A stretch of DNA of 64,000 nt from a virus (IMGVR_UViG_3300035390_000014:1-64000), one strand, 5' to 3'. Numbered from the stretch's first letter, positions 128 through 30,299 are shown. Made by a program: numbers and translations. Notes: generated from the letters alone by a model not told the origin.

Positions 128-3100
128 TTATCTTTTCAAACCTAATGCTGTAAGGTTTGCATTTAATAATTTAACAGACTCAGGAACAATTGAATCGACA
201 TGATCATCTTCTTCAAGTCTTCCTAAATCTGATTCCAATTGTTCTCTAATAAACTTGTTCTTAAGATCAATACAATCAGATTTAGTTGTTAGAAATTCTC
301 TTAAATTAAATTTGGCATTATGTCCAATCAATGCTGCTGTTTCCATTTCCCCACATCTTTGACCACCTTTATTTTTACGACCAGCTAAAGGTTGCAAAGT
401 CTTTCTTGCATATGATCCAATACCTCTTGCCGCTAACCTTGTCTCAGATATATGAACCATTTTAAAGAAATATCCATATCCACATGTTACTGAATTAACT
501 GGATAACTATTTGACTGAGGATCAAACACATGGTATGTAAATTGTGTATTTGTATAAGCTAATGCTTGTTTGGTCTTTTCCATATTAACTGATTCAAATG
601 GAGGTTGAATTATTGACATATTGTCTATCCATTCATCATCAATAATCAAGGGCATTTGCTCTTCAAACTGCTGATGATACCACCCAATTTCAGTATTATC
701 AATTATTTTTATATAACCAAGAACATAATCTTTCACAAGTATCTGAATTTGATCTTGAGATAATTCATGATTTATTACTGATTGATCTTCACCATGAATT
801 ATATGTTTCATTTGCTTCTTCAAATCAAATAAAGACATACCCATATGATATTCAAACAACTGACCTACATTCATTCGACCAATGGTTCCCAAAGGATTGA
901 CAATAATATCAGCATGTCTCCCATCAGGTAACATTGGCATTTTTTCATGAGGAATAATAGTAGAGATTACACCTTTGTTACCATGTCTGTTCCCAACTTT
1001 ATCCCCAATCTGAATTGGTCTAAAGAATATACCAAACATTTCAACTCTAATTCCTAATACCTCTTCACCTTTCTTTTTAAATTTTCCTGTATTACTGAAT
1101 AGATCAAGATTATTTGCCTTGATAAAAGGTTTAACCTGATCCTTCTCCAGATTTTCTTCGATGATAACTTTAATTTTTAATTCTTCATCCTGCTGTGAGT
1201 TGATAACACTTTCAACCCAATCATTATACTGAGGTATATCCACACACCATTGATTAACATATAGATTAACTTCTGTTATAATAACATCCTGTTTTGATAG
1301 AAGTTTTCTTTCTTCTTTAAATATATCAAAGAAGTCCATTTGATTATTCGGAAATTCTTTTAAAATTGCGTATGGAGTACCTTTAGCAATTCTATCTCCG
1401 ATTTTTGGTAAAGGTTTATAATCAGCATTTTTATCCAAAGATAATAACACTTTATTCATAGGGATATCAAAAGACATATCCTCAAAATGAACTGATGTAA
1501 ACAATCCTTCCTTCTGGACGCGGTCTGAGATGATAATTCCATCCTCATAATTGTATCCATAATAAACCATTACACAAGTTAAAAGGTTTTTGCCAATGTT
1601 TATACTTCCATCTTTACAAAAATTACTTTCTGCTAAGATTTCACCAGCTTTAAATTTATCACCTTGCTTCACATATATATTAAATACATCAAGATTTGAT
1701 ATATAAATTTTTCTATATGTGATATTAAATATTTCAATTGTCTTATCATCATATAAAGCTATTATATAATTACTATCAAGATGTATAACCTTTCCTGATT
1801 TTTTAGCAATTTTTACAAACTGAGTATACTTTGTATATAAATTTTCACAACCTGATTTAATCATAGGTTTGTCAAAATTTTGTAACATAATTGCCTGTCT
1901 CATTTGAGACGACGCCATTTGCAACCTAGTCTGATCATCATGTTCAAGGAATGGAACCATAGATACAGGAATTGAAATTGGTTGCTTTTCAAGAAATTCA
2001 TCAGTAAATCTTAAATTTTCATCCAGTGGAACATTTGGAATAAGATTTTGAAGAACTCCGCAGTTATCTCTATCTGGTGTATCAACAGGACATATTCTAC
2101 CAAACATACTTGGCATAATATCTCTTAAATGCTCAGGAACATTCTGTCTATTAAACCCACCAGGTCCAACCAAGCTTGTTCTGCTTAACTTAGTTGCTTC
2201 ATCAATAGGATTAATAGCAAAATCAAACTGAACAATATCTGATACATTACATTCGGATAATATTTGAGTTGAATTAACATTGAATTTTGGTTGTCTTGCT
2301 GTTCTATTGGACATACACATATCAAATACTGCTTTAGATATCTTTGCTAATACTACATATTCAAGACATCTAATTCTTTTATTCTTCAGATCAGTATCAT
2401 CAAGATCACCACCATTCAATGTATAAACAATTTCATCAATAATATTATCGGTTTGAAAGAATATTGTTGAAATAGGATCAACTTTCAATATTAAGTCAAG
2501 GGAATATATAATATCTTCACCCTTAACTCTAGCATTAAATTTTGAATAATTTCTTCCTATTTCTTTTATAATATCATCTTGAGTTAACCCTCTTGATTCA
2601 TCATAAAAACATTTTAAATCATAAATCAACTTTTCATACAAAGTTGATTCCGGTGTCATAATTGGCGCATCTACCATATCAGATAAACCAAATTTTTCAT
2701 TCATAACCTCAATCCCATAATAACCAAACATAATTAGAAATAATGGAACTTTTCTTCCTAAGATGCTAATATAAACATAAGGAGATTCTTTCTGAGGAAA
2801 TATCATAAGAGTTGCAACATTAGTTCTAATCTTGATACTCTTTCCTCTTGTAACAACAGGGATATCAAACAACTGAAATAGAGGTATTTTCTTCCTTCCA
2901 TTTATAACTATGTAATTGTCATCTACTAATGCCGGAATTTGCATAGATAAATCTATCTTTGCAGTTCCTTTTTGAAACCTGATTATCAAATTCTTTTTTA
3001 AGGTTTTACTTATCTCTCCGTTAGAAAATCTGGGTTCTTTTAATCTAAATTCCATCAATTCAAACCCTAATTCTTCTGCTGGGATCAGTATCTTTCTTAC

Positions 3101-3190
3101 GTTCTCCAAAAGAGCTGCATACTCTTGCTGTCGAATATTAAAGATATGATTATTTCCGCCAACTTTATATATCGGATTTTCTATAGCCAA
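128..3190 (-). CDS. rpoB: Multisubunit RNA polymerase beta-like subunit (RNAP-1, probably non-virion), unsplit
   Basis: Motifs GRICPVDTPDRDNCG, HDDQTRLQMASSQMRQA, GYNYEDGIIIS, GDKVGNRHGNKGVIS, GGQRCGEME. TTG start with an AAGGAG RBS. Confidence 0.95.
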   Translation of the reverse strand: MAIENPIYKVGGNNHIFNIRQQEYAALLENVRKILIPAEELGFELMEFRLKEPRFSNGEISKTLKKNLIIRFQKGTAKIDLSMQIPALVDDNYIVINGRKKIPLFQLFDIPVVTRGKSIKIRTNVATLMIFPQKESPYVYISILGRKVPLFLIMFGYYGIEVMNEKFGLSDMVDAPIMTPESTLYEKLIYDLKCFYDESRGLTQDDIIKEIGRNYSKFNARVKGEDIIYSLDLILKVDPISTIFFQTDNIIDEIVYTLNGGDLDDTDLKNKRIRCLEYVVLAKISKAVFDMCMSNRTARQPKFNVNSTQILSECNVSDIVQFDFAINPIDEATKLSRTSLVGPGGFNRQNVPEHLRDIMPSMFGRICPVDTPDRDNCGVLQNLIPNVPLDENLRFTDEFLEKQPISIPVSMVPFLEHDDQTRLQMASSQMRQAIMLQNFDKPMIKSGCENLYTKYTQFVKIAKKSGKVIHLDSNYIIALYDDKTIEIFNITYRKIYISNLDVFNIYVKQGDKFKAGEILAESNFCKDGSINIGKNLLTCVMVYYGYNYEDGIIISDRVQKEGLFTSVHFEDMSFDIPMNKVLLSLDKNADYKPLPKIGDRIAKGTPYAILKEFPNNQMDFFDIFKEERKLLSKQDVIITEVNLYVNQWCVDIPQYNDWVESVINSQQDEELKIKVIIEENLEKDQVKPFIKANNLDLFSNTGKFKKKGEEVLGIRVEMFGIFFRPIQIGDKVGNRHGNKGVISTIIPHEKMPMLPDGRHADIIVNPLGTIGRMNVGQLFEYHMGMSLFDLKKQMKHIIHGEDQSVINHELSQDQIQILVKDYVLGYIKIIDNTEIGWYHQQFEEQMPLIIDDEWIDNMSIIQPPFESVNMEKTKQALAYTNTQFTYHVFDPQSNSYPVNSVTCGYGYFFKMVHISETRLAARGIGSYARKTLQPLAGRKNKGGQRCGEMETAALIGHNAKFNLREFLTTKSDCIDLKNKFIREQLESDLGRLEEDDHVDSIVPESVKLLNANLTALGLKR

Positions 3191-3205
3191 AATGTTGTTC
3201 TCCTT

Positions 3206-5920
3206 TTAAATTTCTTCGCCGCATAAGATTTTATCCATAACTCCATGATATAAACCAGAATCAAGGACACCACGTATGATATGTTTCTTTGGATTTGAAA
3301 ATGCTAAACCCATCAACCAGCTTTCATTTGAGGGCACAGTTTGAACAGATAGGTATTTAGGAACTACATTTTCTCGACCCTCAACCAATCTCCATTTTTT
3401 ATTATTATACCACATCAATTGAGATACAACACATTCAAAATGTACATGATGAATTGTTCTACTAAGGTTATAACAAGTGTACAACTTGGCAACCAATTCT
3501 TCTGGTTTAGTTCCTTTAGGAAATTTATGCAAAAGTTTAGACACTGTTGATAAATCAGCAACAATATCATGCTGTTTCATATCCTCACCTTCACTTTCCT
3601 TATCCAAAACAGCAACACCAGATGTATGAAATGTACGTAAAACCAACTGAGTATTACATTCTCCAAGACTCTGAGCTGCAATAACTCCAACAAACTCAGA
3701 ATCCAACATCTCATACAATTCCCCATAACATTTGGTGCATATTTTAGGGTTCTTACAATATATTGGACTTCTAACTTCAACAATCTTTCCTACATAACCA
3801 AGATAGTTATACTCGGTCATTTTAATCAGAGTACCATCTTCTTTAAACCATTTTCCAATTAACATCTTTGCTTTCTTTTCATCATCAACAAATACAGAAA
3901 GTAAATCAGTTGTTCCACAATCCTCAGTGTCTTTATCAATTTGAAGATTAGCACAAGTGAATATTAATTTTCTTGAAAGGTATCCAGATGTTCCTGTGTT
4001 CAAAGCAACATCAAGTAACCCCTTTCTAGAACCATTGGTAGAATCAAAGAACTCTCTTGGTGTTAACCCATTGATAAAACTATGTTTAATGGGTCTTTCA
4101 ATAATCTCACCTCTAAAGTTTGAAATAAAACCTCTGGTTAAAACTATCTGTCTTACCTGATCCCAACTCCCTCTAGCACCAGATTCTATCATGTATGCGT
4201 ATTTAAAATGATCTCTAAGATACTGAGTTGTTTCTTCCTTAGATACCATATCAAGTTGTTCTCTAATATCATCGCCTTCATACAATGAATCTCTTTTCTC
4301 AAGTGACCCTTCAATGAAACAATCATCTAGTGCAAGAGTTGCCCCAAATAATGTTGAATATTTAAATCCAAGAAATTTAATTTTATCGAGAACAGCAGCA
4401 GTAATTTCATTTGAATATCTATTATTAACATCAGTTAAATAGTAATTAATTTCTTTACCACCAACTTCTTCATCAATTATATGATAGTCAGATGGAAAAC
4501 AATCATTCAATAACTTTCTATCAGCTTTAATTGTTGTCCCTTTATATTCAACATCATACTGTAGATCAGGAAATATTTTATGAGTAACAGCATAGATACC
4601 CAATATAACATCCTGACTTGGTGTAGTTGACAAACTTCCATTAGAAGGATTGGTAAGATTTCTTATAACCAACAATCTATCCAACACTTCTTGCTTTGCT
4701 TCTTCACTGATTGGAACATAAACAGCCATCTGATCCCCATCAAAATCTGCATTAAATGGAGGGCATGACAATGGATGTAGTTTAATAACTTTTTCTAAAG
4801 TAACTTTGGTTTTATATCCCAAAAGACTTAATCTATGTAATGAAGGCTGTCTGTTTAAAATACATACCTCATTTACAGCAATCTCTTCACATATATTAAA
4901 AAGAATTGGGTTGCCAACTTCAATACAATTATCAATAAAATCAATTGAATCATTAATTTTCTTAAATCTTCCAATCTCAATAATTTTCTTTGCGATTTTC
5001 AATTTAAATAATTCAAGAAACATCAAATAAGGTAATGCACAATATTCCATTTCTAATGTAGGATCAGGAACAATTACTGCTCTACCAGAAAAATCAATTC
5101 GTTTACCTAAAATATTACCACGAATCAATCCTTCTTTTTTAGACATTTTCTCAAGAATATAAGCATACAACTCTTGAATATCTTTTTGAAGCTGTCTGTA
5201 ATAATTGTAATATAAATTTCTATCAACTCTTATATCACATGGAGTTTCTCTCATTGCTTCTTTTTTAGTAAGTATTTGAGTATAGTATCTATTAATTTTA
5301 TCCGAAGATACTTGTCCTTTCTTACTAACTTTCTTTGATGCAGGCCTTAAATCAGGAGGTAATACAATAACCTGACCGATTATTAATTGATCTATATTTT
5401 CTTTAACAACTTCCCAAGAAGTATTTCCTATACCCAAACCATAATCAGCTAAATCTTCAATTAATATTTTAATTGCTTCAGTACCGACTAAAGCATTTCT
5501 ATCAATATTTTCAGGGTCTTGTTTTTCAACCCTCCATGATTCTTCTTCATCATCATATACTAAAATACTGTTTTCATCTTTCATCAATTGATCCAATGCA
5601 GTCTTTACTTGACGACCACCAAGATCAATTACAAGATCATAAAACAATGGGTTCACAACCGGGATTGGTAGAATAATTTTAGCAAATCTTTTTCTTCTCT
5701 CATTGCTATTAACAACATCAACTCCACAATCTGCACAGGTTCCACCAGAACCTGATATACCCCAATAGGTTCCACATTGACAAGTATAATTCTTTTCTGG
5801 ACCAAATATCTGCTCAGAAAATAATCCTGTCGCATGAGGCAACTTCTTGTCGTAGATCTTAGTTGTTGTGATTTCTTTTAAGTCTTCACAAAACTCGTCA
5901 AAATTTAATAATGTAGGCAT
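3206..5920 (-). CDS. rpoC: Multisubunit RNA polymerase beta'-like subunit (RNAP-1), unsplit
   Basis: Catalytic NADFDGDQMAV, N-terminal Zn finger (CQCG...CADCG), LGKRIDFSGRAVI, RQPSLHR, bridge helix TGTSGYLSRKL, trigger loop QLVLRTFHTSG. Confidence 0.95.
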   Translation of the reverse strand: MPTLLNFDEFCEDLKEITTTKIYDKKLPHATGLFSEQIFGPEKNYTCQCGTYWGISGSGGTCADCGVDVVNSNERRKRFAKIILPIPVVNPLFYDLVIDLGGRQVKTALDQLMKDENSILVYDDEEESWRVEKQDPENIDRNALVGTEAIKILIEDLADYGLGIGNTSWEVVKENIDQLIIGQVIVLPPDLRPASKKVSKKGQVSSDKINRYYTQILTKKEAMRETPCDIRVDRNLYYNYYRQLQKDIQELYAYILEKMSKKEGLIRGNILGKRIDFSGRAVIVPDPTLEMEYCALPYLMFLELFKLKIAKKIIEIGRFKKINDSIDFIDNCIEVGNPILFNICEEIAVNEVCILNRQPSLHRLSLLGYKTKVTLEKVIKLHPLSCPPFNADFDGDQMAVYVPISEEAKQEVLDRLLVIRNLTNPSNGSLSTTPSQDVILGIYAVTHKIFPDLQYDVEYKGTTIKADRKLLNDCFPSDYHIIDEEVGGKEINYYLTDVNNRYSNEITAAVLDKIKFLGFKYSTLFGATLALDDCFIEGSLEKRDSLYEGDDIREQLDMVSKEETTQYLRDHFKYAYMIESGARGSWDQVRQIVLTRGFISNFRGEIIERPIKHSFINGLTPREFFDSTNGSRKGLLDVALNTGTSGYLSRKLIFTCANLQIDKDTEDCGTTDLLSVFVDDEKKAKMLIGKWFKEDGTLIKMTEYNYLGYVGKIVEVRSPIYCKNPKICTKCYGELYEMLDSEFVGVIAAQSLGECNTQLVLRTFHTSGVAVLDKESEGEDMKQHDIVADLSTVSKLLHKFPKGTKPEELVAKLYTCYNLSRTIHHVHFECVVSQLMWYNNKKWRLVEGRENVVPKYLSVQTVPSNESWLMGLAFSNPKKHIIRGVLDSGLYHGVMDKILCGEEI

Positions 5921-5931
5921 TATTAATCCTT

Positions 5932-6291
5932 TTATTTAAAGGTTTTAATTACATACTCAGATATTGCAACTAAATGTGTCTTGATCTCCTTTGAAATTGA
6001 TAGTTTGAAATTAGGCATTAGCGCCAACATTGTTTGCCCAACTAGGTCTTTAAGGTCTTCTCCTTTAATAGATTCTTTAACTTCTTGGTTAAGTTCATGT
6101 ATATCATTTTCAAAAGTTTCTGTATTATCTTCAACATTAACTAGTCTATCATTTATGTCTTTAACATTTTTTTCTGTTTTAAGACACATATTTTTATAAG
6201 ATTCTATAGTTGGAAGAATTCTCATAATCTCCAATCTCTTATCAATCAATCCAATAAGTTCAATCTCCATCTCTTTACTAAATATAGCCAT
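5932..6291 (-). CDS. Hypothetical coiled-coil protein
   Basis: 119-aa ORF with heptad-like helical pattern, tightly packed in the operon. Confidence 0.6.
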   Translation of the reverse strand: MAIFSKEMEIELIGLIDKRLEIMRILPTIESYKNMCLKTEKNVKDINDRLVNVEDNTETFENDIHELNQEVKESIKGEDLKDLVGQTMLALMPNFKLSISKEIKTHLVAISEYVIKTFK

Positions 6292-6761
6292 TATATAATC
6301 TCCCTTGGTAATGGTGGCGATGTTTTTAAATGTTCACGTAATGGATAATGATGTGGATCATCCAATCCCCATTGAGATATCATATATTTTATATACTTAT
6401 TTGAATAAAATTTATAATTTGGCACACTGGAAGGATCATTCTGGTATTTTTCCATTAACTTATTGCTTATCAATTTTGTTCCTATAATACTATTTCCAGT
6501 ACAAAACCTAGAAAATTTAGGTGGGTTATTTATATCTATATTTTTTTCTCCTTCCCACCCCCAAGCATTTGGATGAAAACTATCTGCAATTATTATATCT
6601 TCTATAATATTATCCAATAAATTATTTACTATAACATAATACCTTTTTACATTATAGCTTGGATGATAATAAGTTATATCATAAGAGGTATGTTTAAATA
6701 TAATATTTTTTGGTATCACACCACCTTTTGATACATAATATTTTTTACCTTCTATCATCAC
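6291..6761 (-). CDS. Putative small E2/UBC-like (ubiquitin-conjugating-fold) protein
   Basis: FHPNA followed about 20 aa later by RFCTG resembles the UBC HPN...C signature with an inserted loop. Adjacent to E1, Ubl and JAB genes. Confidence 0.5.
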   Translation of the reverse strand: MMIEGKKYYVSKGGVIPKNIIFKHTSYDITYYHPSYNVKRYYVIVNNLLDNIIEDIIIADSFHPNAWGWEGEKNIDINNPPKFSRFCTGNSIIGTKLISNKLMEKYQNDPSSVPNYKFYSNKYIKYMISQWGLDDPHHYPLREHLKTSPPLPREII

Positions 6762-6769
6762 CCACTCCT

Positions 6770-7657
6770 TTATGCTGCTCCAGTATCAGGCAGTAATTCT
6801 AAATAAACTTGACTTGGATTTTCATCATTAACTTTAATTGTATAATATTCATTTAAAGGAACAATAGTACATACAATTTCAGATAATATTTTTACAGCAT
6901 TATTATAATGATCAATTTCATTTTTCTTTATGCATTGAATATTTCCTCCTACACATCCTTCTTGTCCAACAATAACTATCAAATCCTTAGTTTTATTAAG
7001 TTTAGTAATTTGAGGCAATGTTTCATGAAGATTTCTAATCTTATTATCACCTTTACAATATTCAAGAACCATATCAGGTTTATTATCAAATAATTCAATA
7101 GCTTTATTGGCTTGTTTCTTAACCAAATCAATTTCAGCTTGAAAAACTAATTGTCTTTCCATAAAATCAGTTAATATTTTTTTATCAATATATTGAGAAG
7201 CAATTGAAGATGCTATGGTTAATTCTGATAATGATAAATTATGTGAATATCTACCTGTTTGTTTAAATACAACTTTATGATATTTTTCACAGTCAATGAC
7301 TAATGTTTTATATGAAATATAAAATCTAACATCAATTTCACCACCACGACTGCAAATTTCATCTCTACAATCAACAATCAATTCACTTTCAGGAAGCCAA
7401 ATCTTTCCTTCTATATATTCAATAGGAAAGATTTTAGTTTTAATTAATGAGTTATTGTTATATATAATACGACTCATTGCCTCAACTTTAAACTTACCGA
7501 TATCATCTCTCTTATAAATAGAATTGCCAATATTTTTTGTTTCTATTATATCAGGGTCAATTAATATTAAATTTTCAATTCCTTTCATTTTAGAAATGTT
7601 ATCAGCAAAGAATCCTCCGAGTGATCCCAAACCAATTATTACGATGCTTTTATACAT
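6770..7657 (-). CDS. ThiF/MoeB/E1-like adenylation-fold protein, degenerate, with C-terminal extension
   Basis: IIGLGSLGG, LILIDPDIIETKNIGNS (the usual NxxRQ is replaced), DIGKFKVEAM, LIVDCRD. Confidence 0.8.
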   Translation of the reverse strand: MYKSIVIIGLGSLGGFFADNISKMKGIENLILIDPDIIETKNIGNSIYKRDDIGKFKVEAMSRIIYNNNSLIKTKIFPIEYIEGKIWLPESELIVDCRDEICSRGGEIDVRFYISYKTLVIDCEKYHKVVFKQTGRYSHNLSLSELTIASSIASQYIDKKILTDFMERQLVFQAEIDLVKKQANKAIELFDNKPDMVLEYCKGDNKIRNLHETLPQITKLNKTKDLIVIVGQEGCVGGNIQCIKKNEIDHYNNAVKILSEIVCTIVPLNEYYTIKVNDENPSQVYLELLPDTGAA

Positions 7658-7711
7658 TTCATTTTTAATCCTTTATGTTATAATAGTTTGTTTCTTAAAT
7701 CAATAATTACT

Positions 7712-8131
7712 TTATTCATTTATATATTCATTTATTTTTTGTAATGTATAATGCAACGAATGAATCTGTTTCATTATAGTTTGAGCTTTACCATAAATAG
7801 TTGGATCAGTTTCTTTGATAAGATTATGCATCAAATGAGAAAGTTTATGAGGTTTTAATTTATTATAAAGTTTATTCATCCCTGCAGTTAATTCACATGC
7901 AACAGTCTCATATTCAATAACATTTGGCGTATTTTGAATAAGTCTATGTGTCAAGAATAATAAATCATTAATATTATCCTCTTCCAAATGTGTAGAAGCT
8001 AAATATAAATCATTTTCATGTTTGTCTTGTAATTCTTTCAAATCAATTTTTATTAATTTAACTGGATTGCCCTCAATTTCAGCGATATAATAATCTTTTT
8101 CATCTTTTAATATTTTAATTTTCTGTTCCAT
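7712..8131 (-). CDS. Hypothetical protein
   Basis: 139-aa ORF with an AAGGAG RBS. Confidence 0.6.
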   Translation of the reverse strand: MEQKIKILKDEKDYYIAEIEGNPVKLIKIDLKELQDKHENDLYLASTHLEEDNINDLLFLTHRLIQNTPNVIEYETVACELTAGMNKLYNKLKPHKLSHLMHNLIKETDPTIYGKAQTIMKQIHSLHYTLQKINEYINE

Positions 8132-8144
8132 TATATCTCCTTTT

Positions 8145-8181
8145 AAATAAGGGGTAAGAATTAATCCCTACCCCTTATTTT
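8145..8181 (-). terminator. Intrinsic terminator-like hairpin downstream of the Ubl gene
   Basis: Minus strand reads GGGGTAGGGA-TTAA-TTCTTACCCC-TTATTT: a 10-bp stem with G-U wobbles plus a U-rich tail. Confidence 0.75.
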
Positions 8182-8196
8182 AATCAAATACTAATA

Positions 8197-8748
8197 CTAT
8201 CCTTTGGAACCAGCAGGTTTGATGAACTCAAGAACATCGCCTTCTTTAAGAACATAAGAAGAATCGATCTTGTTTCCAGAAACCTGACCCTCAGCAAGTC
8301 TATCAATATTCAGAACTTCCTTGAGGAATTCCTGAACTGCTCCAACTGTTTTACCCTGAACAGGAAAGTCAGCAGAGTTGGCACCACAAGAAACCTGAAT
8401 GGTTGTTGTGGTTTTGTCGCCTTTCTTTGCAGAAGGTTTAGTTAGAACACTTGACATTTTAAACTGAGCTGCAGTTACAGGTGCAGGAGGTTTAGAAGCC
8501 ACAGTTTGAGCAAGTTTCTGAGTATGGCTCATCCCAGGTTTAGTTGCAACAGGTTTAGTTGCAACAGGTTTAGACACAGATGCAGGACCATCAGCAGTAG
8601 CGGCAGAAGCAGCAAGAATTGCTTTAATTGTAATGTCTTTGGTCTTTTTGGAAAAACCAACAATTTTACGTGCTCTAACGATAGTTCTCAGTTCAGCAAC
8701 GGTCATGTCATTCAGAGTGTCATAAGTTTCGATTGTAGAATTAGTCAT
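8197..8748 (-). CDS. Ubiquitin-like (beta-grasp) protein with an N-terminal HEH/Rho-N-like domain and a low-complexity linker
   Basis: The C-terminal ~70 aa (TIQVSCGANSADFPVQGKTVGAVQEFLKEVLNI...YVLKEGDVLEFIKPAGSKG) fit a ThiS/MoaD/Ubl pattern ending in Gly. The N-terminal LNDMTVAELRTIVRARKIVGFSKKTKDITIKAIL resembles Rho-N/HEH/SAP motifs. Confidence 0.75.
   Translation of the reverse strand: MTNSTIETYDTLNDMTVAELRTIVRARKIVGFSKKTKDITIKAILAASAATADGPASVSKPVATKPVATKPGMSHTQKLAQTVASKPPAPVTAAQFKMSSVLTKPSAKKGDKTTTTIQVSCGANSADFPVQGKTVGAVQEFLKEVLNIDRLAEGQVSGNKIDSSYVLKEGDVLEFIKPAGSKG
8536..8574. repeat. 15-bp tandem repeat (aggtttagttgcaac, about 2.6 copies) encoding the KPVAT linker
   Basis: Visible directly; encodes KPVATKPVATKP in the Ubl linker. 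Confidence 0.85.
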
Positions 8749-8780
8749 TTTTAGTTCTCCTAATGTTTAATAAATTTAAT

Positions 8781-9458
8781 TTAGTTTTTAGAATTTCTTG
8801 TTTTCGCTAATGTAGCCATTGAAGTGATATCGAAATATACTTCGCCAAACCTTGTCACATCTTTTCCTTGATGAATTGCATAGAACATCCAACACATTAT
8901 TGTTGCAACAGTTAAATTTGTGAACAATAGCTGTGGCGCTGATTCAGATAGTTCTTCGCAACTCATATCTTCCGGAGATCGATCTTCTGGATATTCAATC
9001 TCTGGATGATATTCATCTAATGACGCTGTTACATTCTTCCCACCCTCCCTTTTATAAATCTGAGCGTTACCATCAGTGTATTCATTACCACCACTGATAA
9101 CAGTTATATCATTAAGTGTTGAACAATAATCAGAAATAACTTTTCTGGAAACATGATTGTCAACACATATAAAAACGATGGAATTTTCTGATATTAATGA
9201 TTTTATATTATCTTCATTAACAAATTCATTATAATCTTTAAAACCAACCTTTGAAAATTTGTGTTTAAGTTCTGTGCATTTAACAGTAGCCTTATCACCT
9301 AATCTTGCAAAAGTTTGTCTTTCACTATTTCGTGCTTCATAAAAATCTCCATCAACCAAACTAACAGATGCATTAATGTCTGAGTAGTTTAAATATCTGG
9401 ACAAATTATCACACAAAATAGATCCAACTCCACCTAACCCAATAATAACAATATTCAC
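8781..9458 (-). CDS. ThiF-family E1 (Ubl-activating) enzyme, PRTRC/Ub-system type
   Basis: IIGLGGVGS, LVDGDFYEARNSERQ, FICVDNHVSR, ISGGNE, and a C-terminal MSCEELSESAPQLLFTN carrying a candidate catalytic Cys. No CxxC Zn pairs. Confidence 0.88.
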   Translation of the reverse strand: MNIVIIGLGGVGSILCDNLSRYLNYSDINASVSLVDGDFYEARNSERQTFARLGDKATVKCTELKHKFSKVGFKDYNEFVNEDNIKSLISENSIVFICVDNHVSRKVISDYCSTLNDITVISGGNEYTDGNAQIYKREGGKNVTASLDEYHPEIEYPEDRSPEDMSCEELSESAPQLLFTNLTVATIMCWMFYAIHQGKDVTRFGEVYFDITSMATLAKTRNSKN

Positions 9459-9470
9459 AATAACAATCTC

Positions 9471-10520
9471 CTATTTCTTTGTTAGGTCGTCTTGATCCGG
9501 ATTTTCATCAACATGAAATGGATCACTTTCAGTTACTTCAAAACCCATCAGCTTTGCACTTTCATCATCCAATCCATCAATCAAATCTTTCATCATCAAA
9601 TCTGATTTATGATGTCTATATGGACATTGTGAACATGGATTCCATTCATCATCACTAACTTCATAAGAATCAAATAAACTTCTTTGTTGAGGAGTGCCAG
9701 GCATGAATGATGAATTTCTTTTATAAAATTCACTAATTGACCCACCAAATCCATATGATCCATGATTATATGTTGGTGTTGTATAAATAGGTCTATCAAT
9801 CTGTTTCATCCATTTCTTTGGAAACTCAAAATCCTTTTCAGGAGCAGTACAATCATAACCAAGTTTCTTCTCAGCTGGTACAGGTGTTTTTACACCTTTC
9901 AACCAGGTATATCTCTGGTATTGTTGAGTAACTTCATATTCAACTAATTGAACACCATCAATATAGTCCTCTGGGTTTACCATAAATCTTTCACCACCTG
10001 ACATAATAGAACAAGATATATCAAAATATTCATCAGCCATTTTACCAAGAGTGATATGCAATCCATCCCAATTTTCTTCGTCAGCATGATCTGTACCAGA
10101 ATGAAATGCTGACATATTAGCATGACTATGAATGGTTCCAATTCTTATATAATCCTTATAAGTATCTTCTCCATTGATATAATTAACACTTGCTCCAGTT
10201 ACACCTTGTTTTGGCACATCAATTCTATATCTTTTCCTTTTCTTATTATAATGCAGAATTACATTCGCTTCTGCCTTATACACTTTATATACTTCTCTAA
10301 ACAAAGAAAGTATTTGAGCAAATTGTCTTATTGAAATTTTAGCTATGTTCAAAGTTGCATATGTAGAACATTCACCTAAAATAGAAATTGAATCCACCTT
10401 GTTGAGTGTATTAAAATCACCCATGGTCTTTTTCAGATATATTCCATCTTTTGCTACTACATAGAATATAGGTTCGTCTGGCATTTCAGTTTTTCCATCA
10501 TTCACCCATACTGGAAACAT
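9471..10520 (-). CDS. JAB/JAMM metalloprotease (Ubl deconjugase), PRTRC protein A-like
   Basis: JAMM motif GTIHSHANMSAFHSGTDHADE (HxH-x7-S-x2-D), upstream Glu (KAEANVIL), N-terminal YVVAKDGIYL, C-terminal CSQCPY. Confidence 0.9.
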   Translation of the reverse strand: MFPVWVNDGKTEMPDEPIFYVVAKDGIYLKKTMGDFNTLNKVDSISILGECSTYATLNIAKISIRQFAQILSLFREVYKVYKAEANVILHYNKKRKRYRIDVPKQGVTGASVNYINGEDTYKDYIRIGTIHSHANMSAFHSGTDHADEENWDGLHITLGKMADEYFDISCSIMSGGERFMVNPEDYIDGVQLVEYEVTQQYQRYTWLKGVKTPVPAEKKLGYDCTAPEKDFEFPKKWMKQIDRPIYTTPTYNHGSYGFGGSISEFYKRNSSFMPGTPQQRSLFDSYEVSDDEWNPCSQCPYRHHKSDLMMKDLIDGLDDESAKLMGFEVTESDPFHVDENPDQDDLTKK

Positions 10521-13088
10521 TTAAAAATCCTCCTTAAATTGTTCACTTCTAAGAGATACTTTTGCATTAGTATTTAATATATAACCGCCTAACATATTCG
10601 GAAATCCTGTTTTGTTTTCTGCCATTCTAGGATTAGCAACAGAAATCCTTGGCATTGTAATACCATGTCTTACTACATATTTCAAATCATTTTTTGTAAT
10701 ACTAGTCCCCCATTCTAAATTTGCCCAGCTTGTGACGTAATGATATTCAAATGAATATCTAGTTCCATTTTTTCTTGCTAGAAATTTAATAGAATTTGAT
10801 CTACCATCTGTAAAATGATCACCATGTTGCCATTTAATTTTTTCTAAATCAAATTCTACTATTTCAGATTTCTTCCAGTCATCTGATTTAAATGGTATTC
10901 TTTTAAATTTAGATATAGTATCTTGATTCATCCACAATGTGCATAAATTAGAACATATTGCCAATGGATATTTAGTTGAACCATCATTAATAAAAGCTAT
11001 AATGGAATTAGTATCCTTCTTGGGAAAATTAATAATACCAGTAGTTGTTGCTTTGATTTTATCCCCAGACTTCCAATCACCACACTGTGATTCAACTTTT
11101 CTAACACACCCAATATTAACATTATCATTACCAAAATTAATATATGGAATTCTAAATTGAACTTTTTTATTTAATGAGGTACTGTTAATATACAATTTAT
11201 TATCTTTTTCATCATACTCAAAACTATCAATAGATGATACAAGTAACATATCCTCTGGGTTACTCCAATTGGCATACACTATTGGATCGCCAACTTTAAA
11301 ATCAATATCGCATTGAATACGAGGTATATATAGCCTTGTTCTATTTGCTAATAAAATTTTCTTTAAATACTCTTTTATATCATCAATACCACAATAATAT
11401 CTAACAGCTTGATTACTATCTATAAGAATTCCTTTGTTTCTCATAATATGAAATTTAGGTTTACTCTCTGATCCATTGCTATTGACTAATAGTTTATCAA
11501 AATGACATATAGTATCAGGTTCTATTAAATTATTTGTATCTATAAAATCATAATCATTATGACCATTTTCATAATCACTATGATTTAAATTTATACTATT
11601 TCCATTTTTTCCAACAGGAGGTAAAAACTTTATAATAATATGTCCAGATCCTGATATTGAAATATTTTTATATTTCATTTTTCTAATTTTATAACAATTA
11701 TTATATCCTTCATTGGAAGTAATGATATAATAATCTTTTTCTTTATCAAGAGATTCACCATTGATTTTAATATTACTAAAATTCATTATAGAAAAATCAA
11801 TATTTTCAATAAGATAATGATCATTTCCAATTAATGCCTCAATTTTTCCATCCTGTGCTACTCTAATTGATTTAATCCTTTTATTGACTATACATCCCCC
11901 AGATTTAAAAGTTATAATATCATCAGGTTTAATAACTTTACCATTAACTTCAACTTCCTCCAATTCAGTCTTAGTATATAAATCCCCAAGACCTTTTTCA
12001 AAATCTTGATATGGTACTGAAATTAATTCTCCTTTACTATTTTCTAACTCAACTTCTAAATATGATTCTTCATGATCATCAGTTGTGATAGAATATAAAT
12101 ATAAAATCTCATTGTTAAAAGAAATTTCATCACCAACCTGAATTGTCATTCCTTTTATTGCTAATGAATATGAGGTATTTCTAACATTTGATTTTTTAGT
12201 TACAGTTGACGAAGTTGTACCTCTAACAATATTTTGAAGTAATTCATATGATGAACCAGAATTTTTTGAATCATTTGAATATTCTCTCACAGAACTGATT
12301 ACTCTACCAATGTTTCTATGGAATTTTAACCAACTTACATTATAAATAAACATTGGATCAAGTTTACTAAAATACATCCATGAGAGATAATCTTGAACTT
12401 CATAAGCATTAGAGTTTTCATATGCTTTAATATTATCAGTATAATCTTTATTATAACGATTCAACCAAAATGTTTCAATAATATTTTCAGTAGTTTCTAA
12501 TACAGTTGAATAATTTATAATACTCCCAAGACATATTGTTTGACTATCTGGAATATTATAAAGAGGTGCCTTAAAAAGATAATCTGACAAACTTGTAATT
12601 GGATGCAATCTGAAAAATGGTTGCATTTGAAGCATTTGATTTTGTTTATTTAACACTATTATAAAAACAACATATGGAAAAGATAACTGAAATGAATATG
12701 GGCGACCTGAATTTTCATCCAAATAATTTTCATACCCATACTCTTTTAATTTTCCAGTTATTCTCAATTTTTCTATTGTTGCTTCCATCCCAATATCAGC
12801 TTTAATAGTTCTAATTCTCGGAGGTTCTTCAATAACTATAATTTTTCTACCATTCCCAAAAGTTTCAAAATACTTACAACCTACAGGTAAAATTTCATTG
12901 TTATTATTAAAATTTGTTTTCAAACCATTATAGAAATCTTTTGTTCTTATAGTTCTATTTCTACATATTGGTTTAAAAGGAACCTCTTTTGTTTCGCCGT
13001 GCACATAATTTTTGTCTAATTGGTAAATATCATCTTTAGTTCCAATTATACTAGTATATTGATTACCTATAACAATTTCTCTATTCAC
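10521..13088 (-). CDS. Prokaryotic E2-family (Prok-E2_D / PRTRC protein B-like) domain fused to ~550 aa of beta-rich accessory modules
   Basis: IVIEEPPRIRTI...LSFPYVVF...LFKAPLYNIPDSQTICLG...ETFWLNRYN fits the Prok-E2_D pattern with a candidate catalytic Cys in ICLG. Adjacent to JAB, E1 and Ubl. Confidence 0.72.
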   Translation of the reverse strand: MNREIVIGNQYTSIIGTKDDIYQLDKNYVHGETKEVPFKPICRNRTIRTKDFYNGLKTNFNNNNEILPVGCKYFETFGNGRKIIVIEEPPRIRTIKADIGMEATIEKLRITGKLKEYGYENYLDENSGRPYSFQLSFPYVVFIIVLNKQNQMLQMQPFFRLHPITSLSDYLFKAPLYNIPDSQTICLGSIINYSTVLETTENIIETFWLNRYNKDYTDNIKAYENSNAYEVQDYLSWMYFSKLDPMFIYNVSWLKFHRNIGRVISSVREYSNDSKNSGSSYELLQNIVRGTTSSTVTKKSNVRNTSYSLAIKGMTIQVGDEISFNNEILYLYSITTDDHEESYLEVELENSKGELISVPYQDFEKGLGDLYTKTELEEVEVNGKVIKPDDIITFKSGGCIVNKRIKSIRVAQDGKIEALIGNDHYLIENIDFSIMNFSNIKINGESLDKEKDYYIITSNEGYNNCYKIRKMKYKNISISGSGHIIIKFLPPVGKNGNSINLNHSDYENGHNDYDFIDTNNLIEPDTICHFDKLLVNSNGSESKPKFHIMRNKGILIDSNQAVRYYCGIDDIKEYLKKILLANRTRLYIPRIQCDIDFKVGDPIVYANWSNPEDMLLVSSIDSFEYDEKDNKLYINSTSLNKKVQFRIPYINFGNDNVNIGCVRKVESQCGDWKSGDKIKATTTGIINFPKKDTNSIIAFINDGSTKYPLAICSNLCTLWMNQDTISKFKRIPFKSDDWKKSEIVEFDLEKIKWQHGDHFTDGRSNSIKFLARKNGTRYSFEYHYVTSWANLEWGTSITKNDLKYVVRHGITMPRISVANPRMAENKTGFPNMLGGYILNTNAKVSLRSEQFKEDF

Positions 13089-13090
13089 AA

Positions 13091-13450
13091 TTATTCTCCT
13101 TTTAAGAATTGCATCCTTTCAACAAACTCTTTTAATATTTTCTTAGGATTATCATGTTTAACAACCCAAACCTTAGCTCTTTTAGGAGTTGATGTATTAA
13201 TATTCGCTAAACAATTCCAATGTGAAATAATATATTTATTTTGAGCTTCTCGTTCAATACAAATATAATTTTCATATTTTTTATTATTAGTGACAATAGG
13301 AAGAGACAAGAATATATTTGACCCAACAGGTCCTTCATAATCAATTGTATCGCCTAATTCTTCTTTTTCTATATGATCACAAAGAATCCTTAATTTTTCA
13401 TCTAATTCACTCTTCTTCCATGTTTCAAGAAGTTCATCAATAATTGTCAT
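13091..13450 (-). CDS. Hypothetical protein
   Basis: 119-aa ORF with RBS, operonic. Confidence 0.6.
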   Translation of the reverse strand: MTIIDELLETWKKSELDEKLRILCDHIEKEELGDTIDYEGPVGSNIFLSLPIVTNNKKYENYICIEREAQNKYIISHWNCLANINTSTPKRAKVWVVKHDNPKKILKEFVERMQFLKGE

Positions 13451-13461
13451 TTAATCTCCTT

Positions 13462-13773
13462 TTATTTTTTAATTCTAAATCTTACTCGATTAGGAGTTTC
13501 AACCCATTCACTTCTTTGAAATGGTACAGTTCTCCAATCTTTTTTATCCAAATCAAAAACATGAACCATACCCTGTTTCTGCACCAAAGAAAAGATTTTA
13601 CCCATATTTACATCTTTTGGTCTTTTTCCCTCAGGTATTTTTGAAAAATCCAGAGTGCATCTCATTGTTCTTTCAGTTCCATCAAGTTTTCTAAACCTAA
13701 TAGTAACTTCTTCCTCTGCTTTTATCTTTTGATAAAACTCTATTGCGTTTTGTAATACATTGTCATCAGCCAT
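13462..13773 (-). CDS. WYL_2 / SH3-fold phage protein
   Basis: VTIRFRKLDGTERTMRCTL...VFDLDKKDWRT pattern typical of phage WYL_2 proteins. Confidence 0.75.
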   Translation of the reverse strand: MADDNVLQNAIEFYQKIKAEEEVTIRFRKLDGTERTMRCTLDFSKIPEGKRPKDVNMGKIFSLVQKQGMVHVFDLDKKDWRTVPFQRSEWVETPNRVRFRIKK

Positions 13774-28694: not shown

Positions 28695-28921
28695 TTTTTA
28701 AAATCCTCTTTTCTAGTTAATTCAATTCTCGCTTCACATTCATTTTTTTCATTCATTTTATAATGAATTATTTTATCAACAATATATCCTCGTATAATAT
28801 CCCCTCTTTTAGGAATAGTTTCTAAATACATTTCATCCTTTGTTCCATCAGGATAAATAATATCTACATCATAATCTACTATTGGATCTATATTTAATAA
28901 TTCATCATAAAATTCAGCCAT
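28691..28921 (-). CDS. Hypothetical protein
   Basis: 76-aa ORF overlapping its neighbours by a few nt. Confidence 0.55.
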   Translation of the reverse strand: MAEFYDELLNIDPIVDYDVDIIYPDGTKDEMYLETIPKRGDIIRGYIVDKIIHYKMNEKNECEARIELTRKEDFKK

Positions 28922-30288: not shown

Positions 30289-30299
30289 TATACACCTCT

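What the first reader, a model, noticed from the sequence alone, without database searches (positions are those of the whole stretch)
6291..13088. Complete phage-encoded ubiquitin-like conjugation cassette (E2, JAB, E1, Ubl, E1-like, E2-like) feeding into the RNA polymerase operon
Seen in sequence: six co-oriented, tightly packed genes carry motifs of a large Prok-E2_D-type E2 (ICLG), a JAMM protease (HSH-x7-S-x2-D), an intact ThiF E1 (GxGGxG, NxERQ, SC), a Ubl ending in Gly, a second degenerate ThiF and a small HPN...C protein. They sit immediately upstream of the RNAP-1 beta'/beta genes. Established: E1-E2-JAB-Ubl operons exist in bacteria (PRTRC-type on mobile elements; antiphage Bil/Bub systems; CBASS Cap2/Cap3), where they usually serve the host. 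Inference: the phage carries its own protein-tagging system, possibly to modify its RNAP or replication proteins, mark host defence proteins, or counter host Ubl-based defence. The duplicated E1/E2 architecture and the link to RNAP are what I cannot match to a described system.
Basis: partly seen in the sequence, partly recalled or inferred. Interest (0 to 1): 0.92.

Follow-up and report, generated by a model that had tools for sequence, protein, structure and literature searches.

The report
Jumbo-phage ubiquitin-like protein-tagging cassette
A large uncultured sediment phage, and at least 73 related phage contigs, carry a conserved kit for ubiquitin-like protein tagging (tag, activating enzyme, two carrier-type enzymes, trimming protease, second activating-like protein) fixed next to a phage RNA polymerase; no kit of this type has been tested experimentally.

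Summary
On the minus strand, 13088-6291 encodes:
- an 855-aa protein with an N-terminal Prok-E2_D/UBC-like domain (invariant Cys186) and about 560 aa of SH3/KOW/Tudor-like barrels
- a JAMM/JAB peptidase
- an intact 225-aa ThiF-type E1 (invariant RQ, Asp and Cys167)
- a tag made of a Rho-N-type helix-extended-helix domain plus a beta-grasp ending ...AGSKG
- a second E1-like protein, homologous only in its first ~110 aa
- a mini E2-like protein with invariant H-P-N...C

Gene order, including the RNAP beta'/beta genes, is the same in 73 IMG/VR loci.

In relatives the tag's Gly is followed by 1-5 extra residues. It also occurs as a tandem di-tag, and as a penta-tag in cultured Bacillus jumbo phages. 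These forms imply processing after the Gly.

The four-gene core (E2-JAB-E1-Ubl) is a distant relative of the untested PRTRC / "operon type 6d" cassette and also occurs in many MAGs. The E1-like/mini-E2 pair was seen only where the RNAP is adjacent.

Targets and biological role are unknown. This scan has noted the four-gene core on other DNA (63 notes, at least 59 genomes).

The parts
13462..13773 (-). WYL_2 (Sm-like SH3 barrel) small protein, a conserved upstream neighbour
   Evidence: Pfam WYL_2 4e-10. Present in the same position in 68 related loci.
13091..13450 (-). 119-aa conserved protein of unknown fold, directly upstream of the E2 gene
   Evidence: No family hit. Homologue in 65 loci in the same position.
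10521..13088 (-). 855-aa E2/E3-hybrid-like protein. Its UBC-like Prok-E2_D domain is aa 62-266 (nt 12291-12905), with the active-site stretch LYN-x7-C186 at nt 12525-12563. About 560 aa of tandem SH3/KOW/Tudor-like barrels follow (nt 10524-12221).
   Evidence: C186, N178, E87, P90 and R93 are invariant. The N-terminal domain aligns to UBC E2s at Z 5.0-5.2 and to AFDB PRTRC protein B at E 4e-7. The C-terminal part matches Spt5 KOW arrays (E 2e-6), UBE2O (1e-3) and CarD, Mfd, UvrD-CTD and Tudor barrels (Z about 5-6).
9471..10520 (-). JAMM/JAB metallopeptidase with a PRTRC_A-like N-terminal part. The JAMM motif HSH-x7-S-x2-D is at nt 10089-10130 and the upstream Glu at aa 84.
   Evidence: Pfam Prok-JAB 0.0018 and NCBIfam PRTRC_A 3.9e-6. 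The motif is conserved in 69 sequences.
8781..9458 (-). 225-aa ThiF-type E1 (adenylating enzyme) with an invariant Cys167
   Evidence: Pfam ThiF 6.8e-19. Invariant GxGGxG, D36, R47-Q48, K56, D100 and C167. The profile matches MoeB, ThiF, Uba4 and UBA5.
8197..8748 (-). Ubl tag: an N-terminal Rho-N/SAP-like helix-extended-helix domain (nt 8608-8706), a Pro/Ala/Lys linker, and a C-terminal beta-grasp (nt 8200-8427) ending AGSKG
   Evidence: Profile versus PDB finds the Rho N-terminal domain at 6e-4. The Atlas structure matches ThiS/MoaD/SAMP2 clusters at TM 0.66-0.84. K182 and G183 are invariant. Of 64 distinct homologues, 43 end at G and 21 carry a 1-5 aa tail. L017 encodes a tandem di-tag.
8145..8181 (-). 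Perfect 16-bp hairpin just after the Ubl stop codon: a candidate partial terminator or 3' stabiliser
   Evidence: Folding gives -23.2 kcal/mol, z -4.24, with 0 of 200 shuffles as stable. The simple terminator scan did not call it.
7712..8131 (-). 139-aa accessory ORF of unknown function
   Evidence: No family hit. A homologue is present in only 15 related loci.
6770..7657 (-). 295-aa second E1-like protein. It has a Rossmann/ThiF N-terminal half (aa 1-110) lacking the Arg-Gln of the N-x-x-RQ motif, a divergent C-terminal half, and an invariant extreme C-terminus ...ELxPETG(A/G/S)A.
   Evidence: Pfam ThiF 3.7e-13 over aa 4-104 only. PADLOC Cap2-type 'E1-E2' 4.7e-15 over aa 3-78. hhalign to E1 covers only the first ~110 aa. 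The tail is conserved without extension in about 62 homologues.
6291..6761 (-). 156-aa mini E2-like protein with invariant His63-Pro64-Asn65 (nt 6567-6575) and Cys87 (within nt 6495-6509)
   Evidence: Alignment of 60 sequences. Profile versus PDB returns only E2 enzymes, best 0.061. The pLDDT-92 model's best VIA matches are nearly all UBC E2s but at Z 3-4.1. hhalign lines HPN..C up with LYN..C of the big E2. The family has 372 representative clusters.
5932..6291 (-). 119-aa coiled-coil-like protein between the mini-E2 and rpoC
   Evidence: Only weak coiled-coil family hits. A homologue sits in the same position in 63 loci.
128..5920 (-). RNAP-1 beta' (3206-5920, 904 aa, NADFDGD) and beta (128-3190, 1020 aa), directly downstream
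   Evidence: RpoC and RpoB follow the cassette in 71 of the related loci. A second RNAP set lies at 36870-40961 and 43423-45765.

Best explanation
This is a working ubiquitin-like protein-conjugation system encoded in the core genome of a clade of jumbo phages.

Proposed mechanism (inferred from the families, not assayed):
1. The tag is a beta-grasp domain with an N-terminal Rho-N-type nucleic-acid-binding domain. It is made either ready to use, ending in Gly183 as in this phage, or as a precursor with extra C-terminal residues or tandem units.
2. The JAB peptidase trims precursors after the conserved Lys-Gly. It probably also removes the tag from targets.
3. The 225-aa ThiF-type E1 adenylates Gly183 with ATP and probably forms a thioester on Cys167.
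4. The tag is passed to an E2 cysteine: Cys186 of the 855-aa protein and/or Cys87 of the HPN mini-E2.
5. The tag is then attached to lysines of targets. The ~560-aa SH3/KOW/Tudor-like array of the large E2 probably selects them, acting as a built-in substrate receptor like that of UBE2O.

The second E1-like protein and the mini-E2 form an add-on pair found only where the cassette abuts RNAP-1. They may extend the cascade or form a parallel branch.

The most likely targets are DNA- or RNAP-associated proteins made in the early or middle phase. This step is a weak inference.
For: All catalytic hallmarks are invariant across 60-70 homologues that share only 25-60% identity:
- E1: GxGGxG, D36, R47-Q48, K56, D100, C167.
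- JAMM motif of the peptidase.
- E2 Cys186 and Asn178 at UBC-like spacing.
- Mini-E2 H-P-N and Cys.
- Tag Lys-Gly terminus.

Folds: the large protein's residues 62-266 align to solved E2s at Z 5.0-5.2 and to PRTRC protein B. The tag's C-terminal domain matches ThiS/MoaD/SAMP2 beta-grasps at TM 0.66-0.84.

Precursor forms show that the Gly is exposed by cleavage:
- 21 of 64 tags carry 1-5 extra residues after the Gly.
- L017 encodes a head-to-tail di-tag.
- Bacillus phage vB_BceM_WH1 gp211 has five near-identical 57-aa units, each ending AGTKG, plus a 15-aa cap. It lies three genes upstream of an E2-JAB-E1 triad.
- A conserved Gly followed by up to nine residues is also reported for Type II Bil Ubls (PMC10557695).

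Gene order is conserved in 73 IMG/VR loci and 3 phage-like MAG contigs.

The transcription or DNA lead rests on three points: the Rho-N-type domain on the tag, Spt5/NusG/CarD/Mfd-like barrels on the E2, and the E1-like/mini-E2 pair being present only where RNAP-1 is adjacent.
Against: - No biochemical data exist for this cassette or for its closest known relatives (PRTRC/6d).
- No target is identified.
- The window copy of the large E2 is below Pfam's cut-off (18.7 vs 25 bits).
- All structural Z-scores for E2-like domains are modest (at most 5.2). For the mini-E2 they are below significance.
- The E1 is a short MoeB/ThiF-like enzyme without a separate Cys domain or UFD, so thioester transfer is assumed.
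- SH3, KOW and Tudor barrels are generic. Their resemblance to RNAP-binding domains carries no specificity.
- The whole SbcCD-to-RNAP region is syntenic, so the RNAP link may be inherited gene order.
- Co-occurrence of the add-on pair with RNAP is confounded by phylogeny.
Confidence: 0.6

Rival explanations
1. The cassette is a real conjugation system, but its position next to RNAP is only inherited gene order. Its targets lie elsewhere, for example virion proteins that are tagged or cross-linked during assembly.
For: The entire region (topoisomerase, helicase, SbcCD, radical SAM, WYL_2, cassette, RNAP) is collinear in distant relatives. The four-gene core occurs without any RNAP in Bacillus jumbo phages, in two divergent IMG/VR records and in about 75 MAG loci. 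The depositor of the WH1 record names the penta-tag gp211 'virion structural protein'.
Against: The basis of the WH1 annotation could not be checked, since no paper was found. In this clade the tag has acquired a Rho-N-type domain, and the E1-like/mini-E2 pair is seen only beside RNAP.
Confidence: 0.35
2. The cassette contains two independent modules. One is a PRTRC/6d-like core (E2-JAB-E1-Ubl). The other is a Cap2-like split E1/E2 pair (295-aa E1-like protein plus HPN mini-E2) that activates a different C-terminus. That C-terminus could be the E1-like protein's own invariant ...ETGAA tail, by analogy with CD-NTase conjugation in type II CBASS.
For: The core exists alone in many genomes, and the pair was never seen without RNAP adjacency. 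The E1-like protein scores best against Cap2-type models (PADLOC 4.7e-15; PDB Cap2 3e-10). Its C-terminus ...EL(I/L)xETG(A/G/S)A is invariant and never extended in about 62 homologues. That tail resembles the tag's ...LEF(I/L)KPAGxKG.
Against: The E1-like protein lacks the Arg-Gln of the ATP site and the whole C-terminal half of the adenylation domain, so it may be inactive. hhalign found no similarity between its C-terminal part and the tag. Its fold could not be predicted here.
Confidence: 0.25
3. The system serves host takeover or counter-defence. It would tag or remove tags from host proteins, for example by neutralising host Ubl-based defences such as Bil or CBASS, rather than acting on phage proteins.
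For: Related bacterial E1/E2/JAB systems act in phage-host conflict (PMC10557695). Cellular copies of this same core sit next to a retron-type reverse transcriptase in a Victivallales chromosome, which looks like a defence-island context.
Against: The cassette is a fixed, collinear core module across a deep phage clade. It is not a patchy accessory gene set as counter-defence genes usually are. Nothing in the sequences points to a host target.
Confidence: 0.2
4. The beta-grasp protein is a sulfur carrier of the ThiS/MoaD/CysO/QbsE type. The E1 would make a thiocarboxylate for a thio-modification, and the JAB would only expose the Gly.
For: The E1 is closest to MoeB, ThiF and Uba4. The beta-grasp is closest to ThiS/MoaD clusters. 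JAB plus ThiS-like plus E1 sulfur pathways, and tails beginning with Cys, are known (Iyer et al. 2006, PMC1779556). QueD and radical SAM genes lie upstream.
Against: Sulfur transfer has no use for two E2-like proteins with invariant cysteines that are always co-encoded. No rhodanese, ThiG/MoaE-type acceptor or cysteine desulfurase was seen in the cassette. The terminus is Lys-Gly, not Gly-Gly. Poly-tag precursors and a nucleic-acid-binding fusion fit a protein modifier.
Confidence: 0.07

Closest known systems
Operon type 6d of Iyer, Burroughs & Aravind 2006 (PMC1779556), equivalent to the PRTRC cassette (NCBIfam TIGR03734-03742; Pfam Prok-E2_D, Prok-JAB)
   Same: A four-gene set of a Ubl with a C-terminal Gly, a JAB with an N-terminal extra domain, a short ThiF-type E1, and an E2-like protein lacking the classical His. 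Weak but specific hits to PRTRC_A (3.9e-6), PRTRC_ThiF (6.5e-9) and Prok-E2_D, and a structural match to PRTRC protein B. Both are untested experimentally as far as the searchable literature shows.
   Different: All scores are far below the family cut-offs. No ParB is present. There is no invariant His after the catalytic Cys. The cassette sits in a lytic-type jumbo phage core genome rather than on a plasmid or ICE. The E2 carries a 560-aa barrel array, the tag carries a Rho-N-type domain, and there is an extra E1-like protein plus an HPN mini-E2.
E2-JAB-E1 triads with a poly-Ubl gene in cultured Bacillus jumbo phages (vB_BceM_WH1 gp211/214/215/216, Edson, vB_BauM_KLEB27-3 gp199/196/195/194)
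   Same: Homologous E2 (N...C motif aligned), JAB and ThiF in the same order. The tag has the same AG-x-KG terminus.
   Different: The E2 is the domain alone (241-255 aa). The tag is a penta-repeat without a Rho-N domain. There is no second E1-like protein or mini-E2, and no RpoC homologue was found in WH1. E1 identity is only about 27-29%.
Bil systems (Type I and II BilABCD; operon types 6e and 6c) and Bub systems of bacterial antiphage defence
   Same: An E1, an E2, a peptidase and a Ubl in one operon. Ubls have a conserved Gly followed by a removable tail, and some have tandem beta-grasp domains (PMC10557695). The BubCD-BubB chain appears among the weak structural matches of the mini-E2.
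   Different: The Bil E1 is a single chain of about 450 aa with inactive and active adenylation domains. Here the E1 is 225 aa, with a separate E1-like gene. PADLOC BilD scores only E 0.0011 and there is no BilA, BilB or BilC hit. The system is encoded by the phage, not the host.
Type II CBASS Cap2 (E2-E1 fusion) and Cap3 (JAB)
   Same: The second E1-like protein's Rossmann half scores best on Cap2 models. The analogy is conjugation of a protein through its own C-terminus.
   Different: E1-like and E2-like are separate genes in the order E1 then E2. The similarity covers only about 75-100 residues. No CD-NTase was looked for or seen in the cassette.
UBE2O, the eukaryotic E2/E3 hybrid
   Same: One polypeptide combines a UBC domain with SH3-like barrels that bind substrates. 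UBE2O chains appear among the Foldseek matches (E about 1e-3).
   Different: The domain order is reversed, with the barrels C-terminal here. There is no detectable sequence relationship, so this is an analogy only.
Eukaryotic heterodimeric E1s (Aos1-Uba2, APPBP1-Uba3)
   Same: One intact and one degenerate adenylation-type protein are encoded together.
   Different: Heterodimer formation is not shown: complex prediction gave no verdict. The degenerate partner here keeps only the first ~110 residues of the fold.

Membership tests
PRTRC cassette / operon type 6d | Small Ub-like protein with a highly conserved C-terminal glycine | tested here: met
   K182-G183 are invariant in 65 sequences. The beta-grasp is supported by Atlas structure matches. 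There is no hit to NCBIfam PRTRC_C.
PRTRC cassette / operon type 6d | JAB peptidase with an N-terminal JAB-N domain (PRTRC_A) | tested here: inconclusive
   PRTRC_A E 3.9e-6 and 26.6 bits against a cut-off of 101.8. The match covers residues 20-169, including the part before the JAMM motif. The JAMM motif itself is invariant.
PRTRC cassette / operon type 6d | E2-like protein lacking the classical His but with an absolutely conserved His C-terminal to the Cys (PMC1779556, Table 1 row 6d) | tested here: not met
   The classical His is absent (LYN instead of HPN), as in 6d. However, no His is among the invariant or nearly invariant columns of alignment A1. Prok-E2_D is hit by 19 of 31 members, and the window copy is below the cut-off.
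PRTRC cassette / operon type 6d | ParB-family protein in the cassette (the 'PR' of PRTRC) | tested here: not met
   PF02195 finds nothing in the 202.7-kb record, which is estimated 65% complete. The control genomes matched.
PRTRC cassette / operon type 6d | PRTRC-type ThiF at equivalog level | tested here: not met
   PRTRC_ThiF scores 35.5 bits against a cut-off of 144.75.
Canonical UBC E2 (for the 156-aa protein) | HPN motif followed about 8 residues later by the catalytic Cys | tested here: met
   H63, N65 and C87 are invariant and P64 is nearly so. The Asn-to-Cys spacing is 9 in most of 60 homologues, and 22 in the window copy because of a 13-aa insert.
Canonical UBC E2 (for the 156-aa protein) | UBC fold | tested here: inconclusive
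   The model has pLDDT 91.9. VIA-align's top rows are almost all E2, UEV or RWD chains, but Z is only 3.0-4.1. Foldseek on PDB, AFDB clusters and Atlas gave nothing significant. Profile versus PDB returned only E2s, best E 0.061.
Bil (BilABCD) | Single-chain E1 with inactive plus active adenylation domains; BilB-type E2 | tested here: not met
   The E1 is 225 aa with one adenylation domain. PADLOC BilD scores E 0.0011 over about 110 residues, and there is no BilA, BilB or BilC hit.
Type II CBASS Cap2/Cap3 | E2-E1 fusion protein acting on a CD-NTase | tested here: not met
   There is no fusion. The Cap2-model matches cover only the Rossmann segment, residues 3-78/99. The presence of a CD-NTase was not tested.
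ThiS/MoaD sulfur-carrier pathways | Beta-grasp ending Gly-Gly, with a sulfurtransferase or acceptor enzyme (ThiG, MoaE, rhodanese) in the neighbourhood | tested here: not met
   The terminus is Lys-Gly. None of the ten cassette proteins hits such families. The rest of the genome was not searched for them.
Heterodimeric E1 | Physical complex of an active and a degenerate adenylation subunit | tested here: inconclusive
   Complex prediction on E1 plus the E1-like protein scored 0.00 and gave 'no answer'.

The most novel reading that the evidence does not exclude
A transcription-coupled, multi-tier ubiquitin-like cascade in a bacterial virus. An E1, possibly paired with the degenerate E1-like protein, would charge a classical HPN mini-E2. 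The mini-E2 would hand the tag to the Cys of the large E2, which would act like an E3 or E2/E3 hybrid. This enzyme would covalently attach a Rho-N-type nucleic-acid-binding tag to the phage's own RNA polymerase or to DNA-bound proteins, switching transcription or replication during infection.
Probability: 0.15. Interest if true: 0.92.

Novelty: new variant of a known kind. Interest (0 to 1): 0.78.

Why it matters
Ubiquitin-like conjugation in bacteria has recently been shown to work as antiviral defence (CBASS Cap2, Bil, Bub). The PRTRC/6d branch, predicted in 2006, has never been assayed.

Here that branch appears as a fixed core module of a large clade of jumbo phages, elaborated in ways that recall eukaryotic systems:
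- an intact and a degenerate E1-type protein
- a classical HPN E2 beside a Cys-only E2 that carries its own substrate-binding array
- poly-tag precursors
- a tag fused to a nucleic-acid-binding domain

If active, it would be virus-encoded ubiquitin-like tagging in prokaryotes. It could show what such systems did before, or alongside, their use in immunity.

The proteins are small and could be expressed. Cultured Bacillus jumbo phages (WH1, Edson, KLEB27-3) carry a simpler version with a penta-tag, which gives a genetic system in which to test it.

Tried and rejected
- **Close relatives in cultured phages.** megablast of the cassette against INPHARED found nothing. A single-protein scan of IMG/VR also found nothing; the alignment-based scan worked.
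- **E1 / E1-like heterodimer.** Complex prediction scored 0.00 and returned 'no answer'. This is not evidence for or against binding.
- **Mini-E2 fold.** Foldseek on PDB, AFDB clusters and the ESM Atlas shape search gave no significant match.
- **C-terminal half of the E1-like protein.** The Atlas holds no model. hhalign against the tag family found nothing.
- **The 119-aa upstream protein.** No family, and no Atlas model.
- **Literature.** Searches for a phage-encoded E1/E2/JAB/Ubl system, for jumbo phages with ubiquitin, for PRTRC and for phage WH1 found no description of this cassette. The 2021 jumbo-phage survey mentions no Ubl, JAB or ThiF.
- **Other searches.** The word-indexed protein search with the mini-E2 profile found only 5 hits; the exhaustive search found 372. 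No RNA run holds the sequence, so expression could not be checked. The promoter and terminator scan was uninformative.
- **Rejected reading.** That the HPN...C in the small protein is a chance motif. It is invariant in 60 homologues.

Full report
**Anatomy.** The window is 30% G+C, and all long ORFs lie on the minus strand. It is bases 1-64000 of a 202.7-kb linear virus record found in sediment metagenomes. Between 13088 and 6291, seven tightly packed genes are read in this order:
- an 855-aa protein
- a 349-aa protein
- a 225-aa protein
- a 183-aa protein
- a 295-aa protein
- a 156-aa protein

A 119-aa ORF and the RNAP beta' (904 aa) and beta (1020 aa) genes follow. A second multisubunit RNAP set lies further along the window.

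**Component identities.** Single-sequence family scans gave the following:

| Protein | Best hits |
|---|---|
| 855 aa | Prok-E2_D 0.0015, over residues 170-230 |
| 349 aa | Prok-JAB 0.0018; PRTRC_A 3.9e-6 |
| 225 aa | ThiF 6.8e-19 |
| 183 aa | weak ThiS, TGS and SAP hits |
| 295 aa | ThiF 3.7e-13, over residues 4-104 only; Cap2-type 'E1-E2' models up to 4.7e-15 |
| 156 aa | nothing |

**The family and its conservation.** The 855-aa protein has 49 full-length homologues in metagenomes. An alignment-based scan of IMG/VR returned 73 distinct loci on contigs of up to 277 kb.

An iterated HMM survey of those loci gave 49 loci with one identical order: WYL_2, 119-aa protein, large E2, JAB, E1, Ubl, E1-like, mini-E2, 119-aa protein, RpoC, RpoB. 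Nearly all the rest differ only where the locus is cut at a contig end or by the optional 139-aa ORF. Two NCBI-sourced contigs whose large E2 is 28-35% identical to this one show the same order.

**Catalytic residues.**
- Large E2: C186, N178, E87, P90 and R93 are invariant. N178 lies 8 residues before the Cys, the spacing of HPN-to-Cys in UBC enzymes.
- E1: G7, G9, G10, G12, D36, R47, Q48, K56, D100 and C167 are invariant.
- JAB: the Glu and HSH-x7-S-x2-D are conserved.
- Mini-E2: H63, N65 and C87 are invariant and P64 is nearly so. The consensus is HPNxxPxTxEFCLP. The window copy has a 13-residue insert between the motif and the Cys.
- hhalign's only alignment between the two E2-like families lines HPN...C up with LYN...C (E 0.098).

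**Folds.**
- The large protein's model (pLDDT 86) aligns over residues 62-266 to solved E2s: UBE2S, UbcH5, UbcH7 and Ubc8, at Z 5.0-5.2 with 117-129 residues aligned.
- Its first 288 residues match AFDB 'PRTRC system protein B' (E 4e-7) and an unnamed 274-aa protein (E 7e-15, TM 0.71).
- 19 of 31 homologues hit Prok-E2_D.
- Residues ~290-850 are tandem SH3/KOW/Tudor-type barrels. The best PDB matches are Spt5 KOW arrays, then UBE2O, CarD, Mfd, UvrD-CTD and Tudor domains. These folds are generic, so I treat the RNAP-binding flavour only as a lead.
- The mini-E2 model (pLDDT 92) places the HPN directly after a five-strand meander, followed by two helices. Its VIA-align list is almost entirely E2, UEV or RWD chains, but at Z of 4.1 or less. 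Three other searches were not significant. A profile search of PDB sequences returned only three hits, all E2s. I rate it E2-like at moderate confidence, mainly on the invariant motif.

**The tag.**
- Its N-terminal ~45 residues match the Rho N-terminal helix-extended-helix domain (E 6e-4).
- Residues 108-183 match ThiS, MoaD, SAMP2, RnfH and TGS beta-grasp clusters at TM 0.66-0.84.
- The C-terminus LEF(L/I)KPAGxKG is conserved. Of 64 distinct homologues, 43 end at the Gly and 21 carry 1-5 more residues, 14 of them a single Cys.
- One relative (L017; its large E2 is 48% identical to this one) encodes two complete HeH-Ubl units head to tail, joined directly after KG.
- In Bacillus phage vB_BceM_WH1, gp211 consists of five near-identical 57-aa units, each ending AGTKG, plus a 15-aa cap. 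It lies three genes upstream of an E2-only protein (gp214, N...C motif aligned), a JAB (gp215) and a ThiF (gp216).
- Phages Edson and KLEB27-3 share this arrangement, and the KLEB27-3 depositor already noted a PRTRC_A domain.

These precursor forms are the strongest evidence that the Gly is exposed by proteolysis and used chemically. Type II Bil Ubls show the same pattern (PMC10557695).

**The second E1-like protein.**
- Only its first ~110 residues are homologous to E1s.
- It keeps GxGxxG, D34, K57 and D96 but has Asn-Ser where the E1 has Arg-Gln.
- Its extreme C-terminus ...EL(I/L)xETG(A/G/S)A is invariant and never extended in about 62 homologues. That tail resembles the tag's own. I could not fold this protein.
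- Complex prediction of E1 with the E1-like protein gave no verdict.

**Modularity.** Two divergent IMG/VR records (fragments, estimated 13% and 27% complete) and the complete WH1 genome have the core but no E1-like protein, no mini-E2 and no RpoC homologue.

A scan of species-representative genomes with the E1 profile found 122 relatives at 39-57% identity. They come from MAGs of Patescibacteria, Methylomirabilota, Desulfobacterota, Gammaproteobacteria, Lentisphaerota and DPANN or other archaea. Most carry E2-JAB-E1-Ubl in that order, with tags ending (A/S)GxKG. Only three phage-like contigs have the E1-like gene and RNAP.

Neighbours of the cellular copies vary:
- a retron-type reverse transcriptase in a 5.6-Mb Victivallales contig, present twice
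- a classical AAA ATPase in Methylomirabilota

So the four-gene core is an old, mobile module. The E1-like/mini-E2 pair is an addition specific to the RNAP-adjacent phage lineage. The mini-E2 family itself has 372 representative clusters in the exhaustive search.

**Comparison with known systems.** Iyer, Burroughs and Aravind (2006) defined operon type 6d as a Ub-like protein, a JAB with a JAB-N domain, an E1-like protein, an E2-like protein lacking the classical His but with a conserved His after the Cys, and a helical protein (PMC1779556). TIGRFAM calls the same set PRTRC.

This cassette is a distant relative of that set:
- its hits to PRTRC_A, PRTRC_ThiF and Prok-E2_D are specific but far below the cut-offs
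- there is no ParB
- there is no invariant His after the Cys

It is not a Bil, Bub or CBASS member. I found no paper describing this phage cassette or testing PRTRC/6d.

This scan has noted the phage-borne four-gene core before, on other genomes (63 notes). Those notes agree on PRTRC/6d as the nearest relative. I checked that against the paper itself.

What is shown:
- gene content
- invariant catalytic residues
- the folds of the large E2 and of the tag
- precursor forms of the tag
- deep conservation of gene order
- the modular distribution of the core and of the add-on pair

What is inferred:
- the thioester relay
- the division of labour between the two E2-like proteins
- the role of the E1-like protein
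- the targets and the benefit to the phage

The link to RNAP is positional and co-occurrence-based only.

Noticed in passing
L001:2637-3563 (Bacillus phage vB_BceM_WH1 gp211, LC597490.1 178788-179687): A penta-Ubl precursor: five near-identical 57-aa units, each ending AGTKG, plus a 15-aa cap. The record annotates it as 'virion structural protein'. Homologues exist in phages Edson and KLEB27-3. If the annotation rests on virion proteomics, the tag may end up in virions.
   Followed up: partly
L017:14416-15372: In a 207-kb relative the tag gene encodes two complete Rho-N-plus-beta-grasp units head to tail, joined directly after ...KPAGRKG. L058 and L049 instead have two Rho-N domains before a single beta-grasp.
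   Followed up: partly
window 6773-6793 (C-terminus of the 295-aa E1-like protein): The extreme C-terminus ...EL(I/L)xETG(A/G/S)A is invariant and never extended in about 62 homologues. It resembles the tag's own tail, so it could be a second, cis-encoded substrate for adenylation or a plug for an active site.
   Followed up: partly
window 8145-8181: A perfect 16-bp hairpin lies right after the tag gene's stop codon (z -4.24). It may raise tag expression relative to the downstream genes.
   Followed up: partly
L157:4930-5766 and L158:4980-5819 (Victivallales MAG, 5.6-Mb contig): Two chromosomal copies of the E2-JAB-E1-Ubl core are each preceded by a retron-type reverse transcriptase (Ec67/St85 family, E 1e-64 to 1e-68) and a small protein. 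A third copy is in a Lentisphaeria MAG (L153).
   Followed up: partly
L087:4652-6400, L095:5088-7058 and 14 other Methylomirabilota loci: A classical AAA ATPase (PF00004) of 580-660 aa sits directly upstream of the E2-JAB-E1-Ubl core. The pairing recalls a Cdc48- or proteasome-ATPase-type partner for a Ubl system.
   Followed up: no
window 36870-40961 and 43423-45765: A second multisubunit RNAP set: beta 1363 aa and beta' 780 aa. The phage therefore has two RNAPs, like phiKZ/AR9-type jumbo phages. Which one is packaged in the virion is unknown.
   Followed up: no
window 28921-31529: A DUF2201 putative metallopeptidase/VWA-like protein (455 aa) next to a 409-aa protein with only a marginal AAA_22 hit (E 6e-4, below the cut-off), in the replication arm. 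This could be a MoxR/VWA-like pair.
   Followed up: no
L135 (Woesearchaeota-labelled MAG contig, 211 kb): A divergent phage-like contig keeps WYL_2, E2, JAB, E1, Ubl, E1-like, RpoC and RpoB, but its E2 is only 233 aa (no barrel array) and no mini-E2 was detected. Several phage-type contigs are binned into archaeal MAGs, probably a binning artefact.
   Followed up: no
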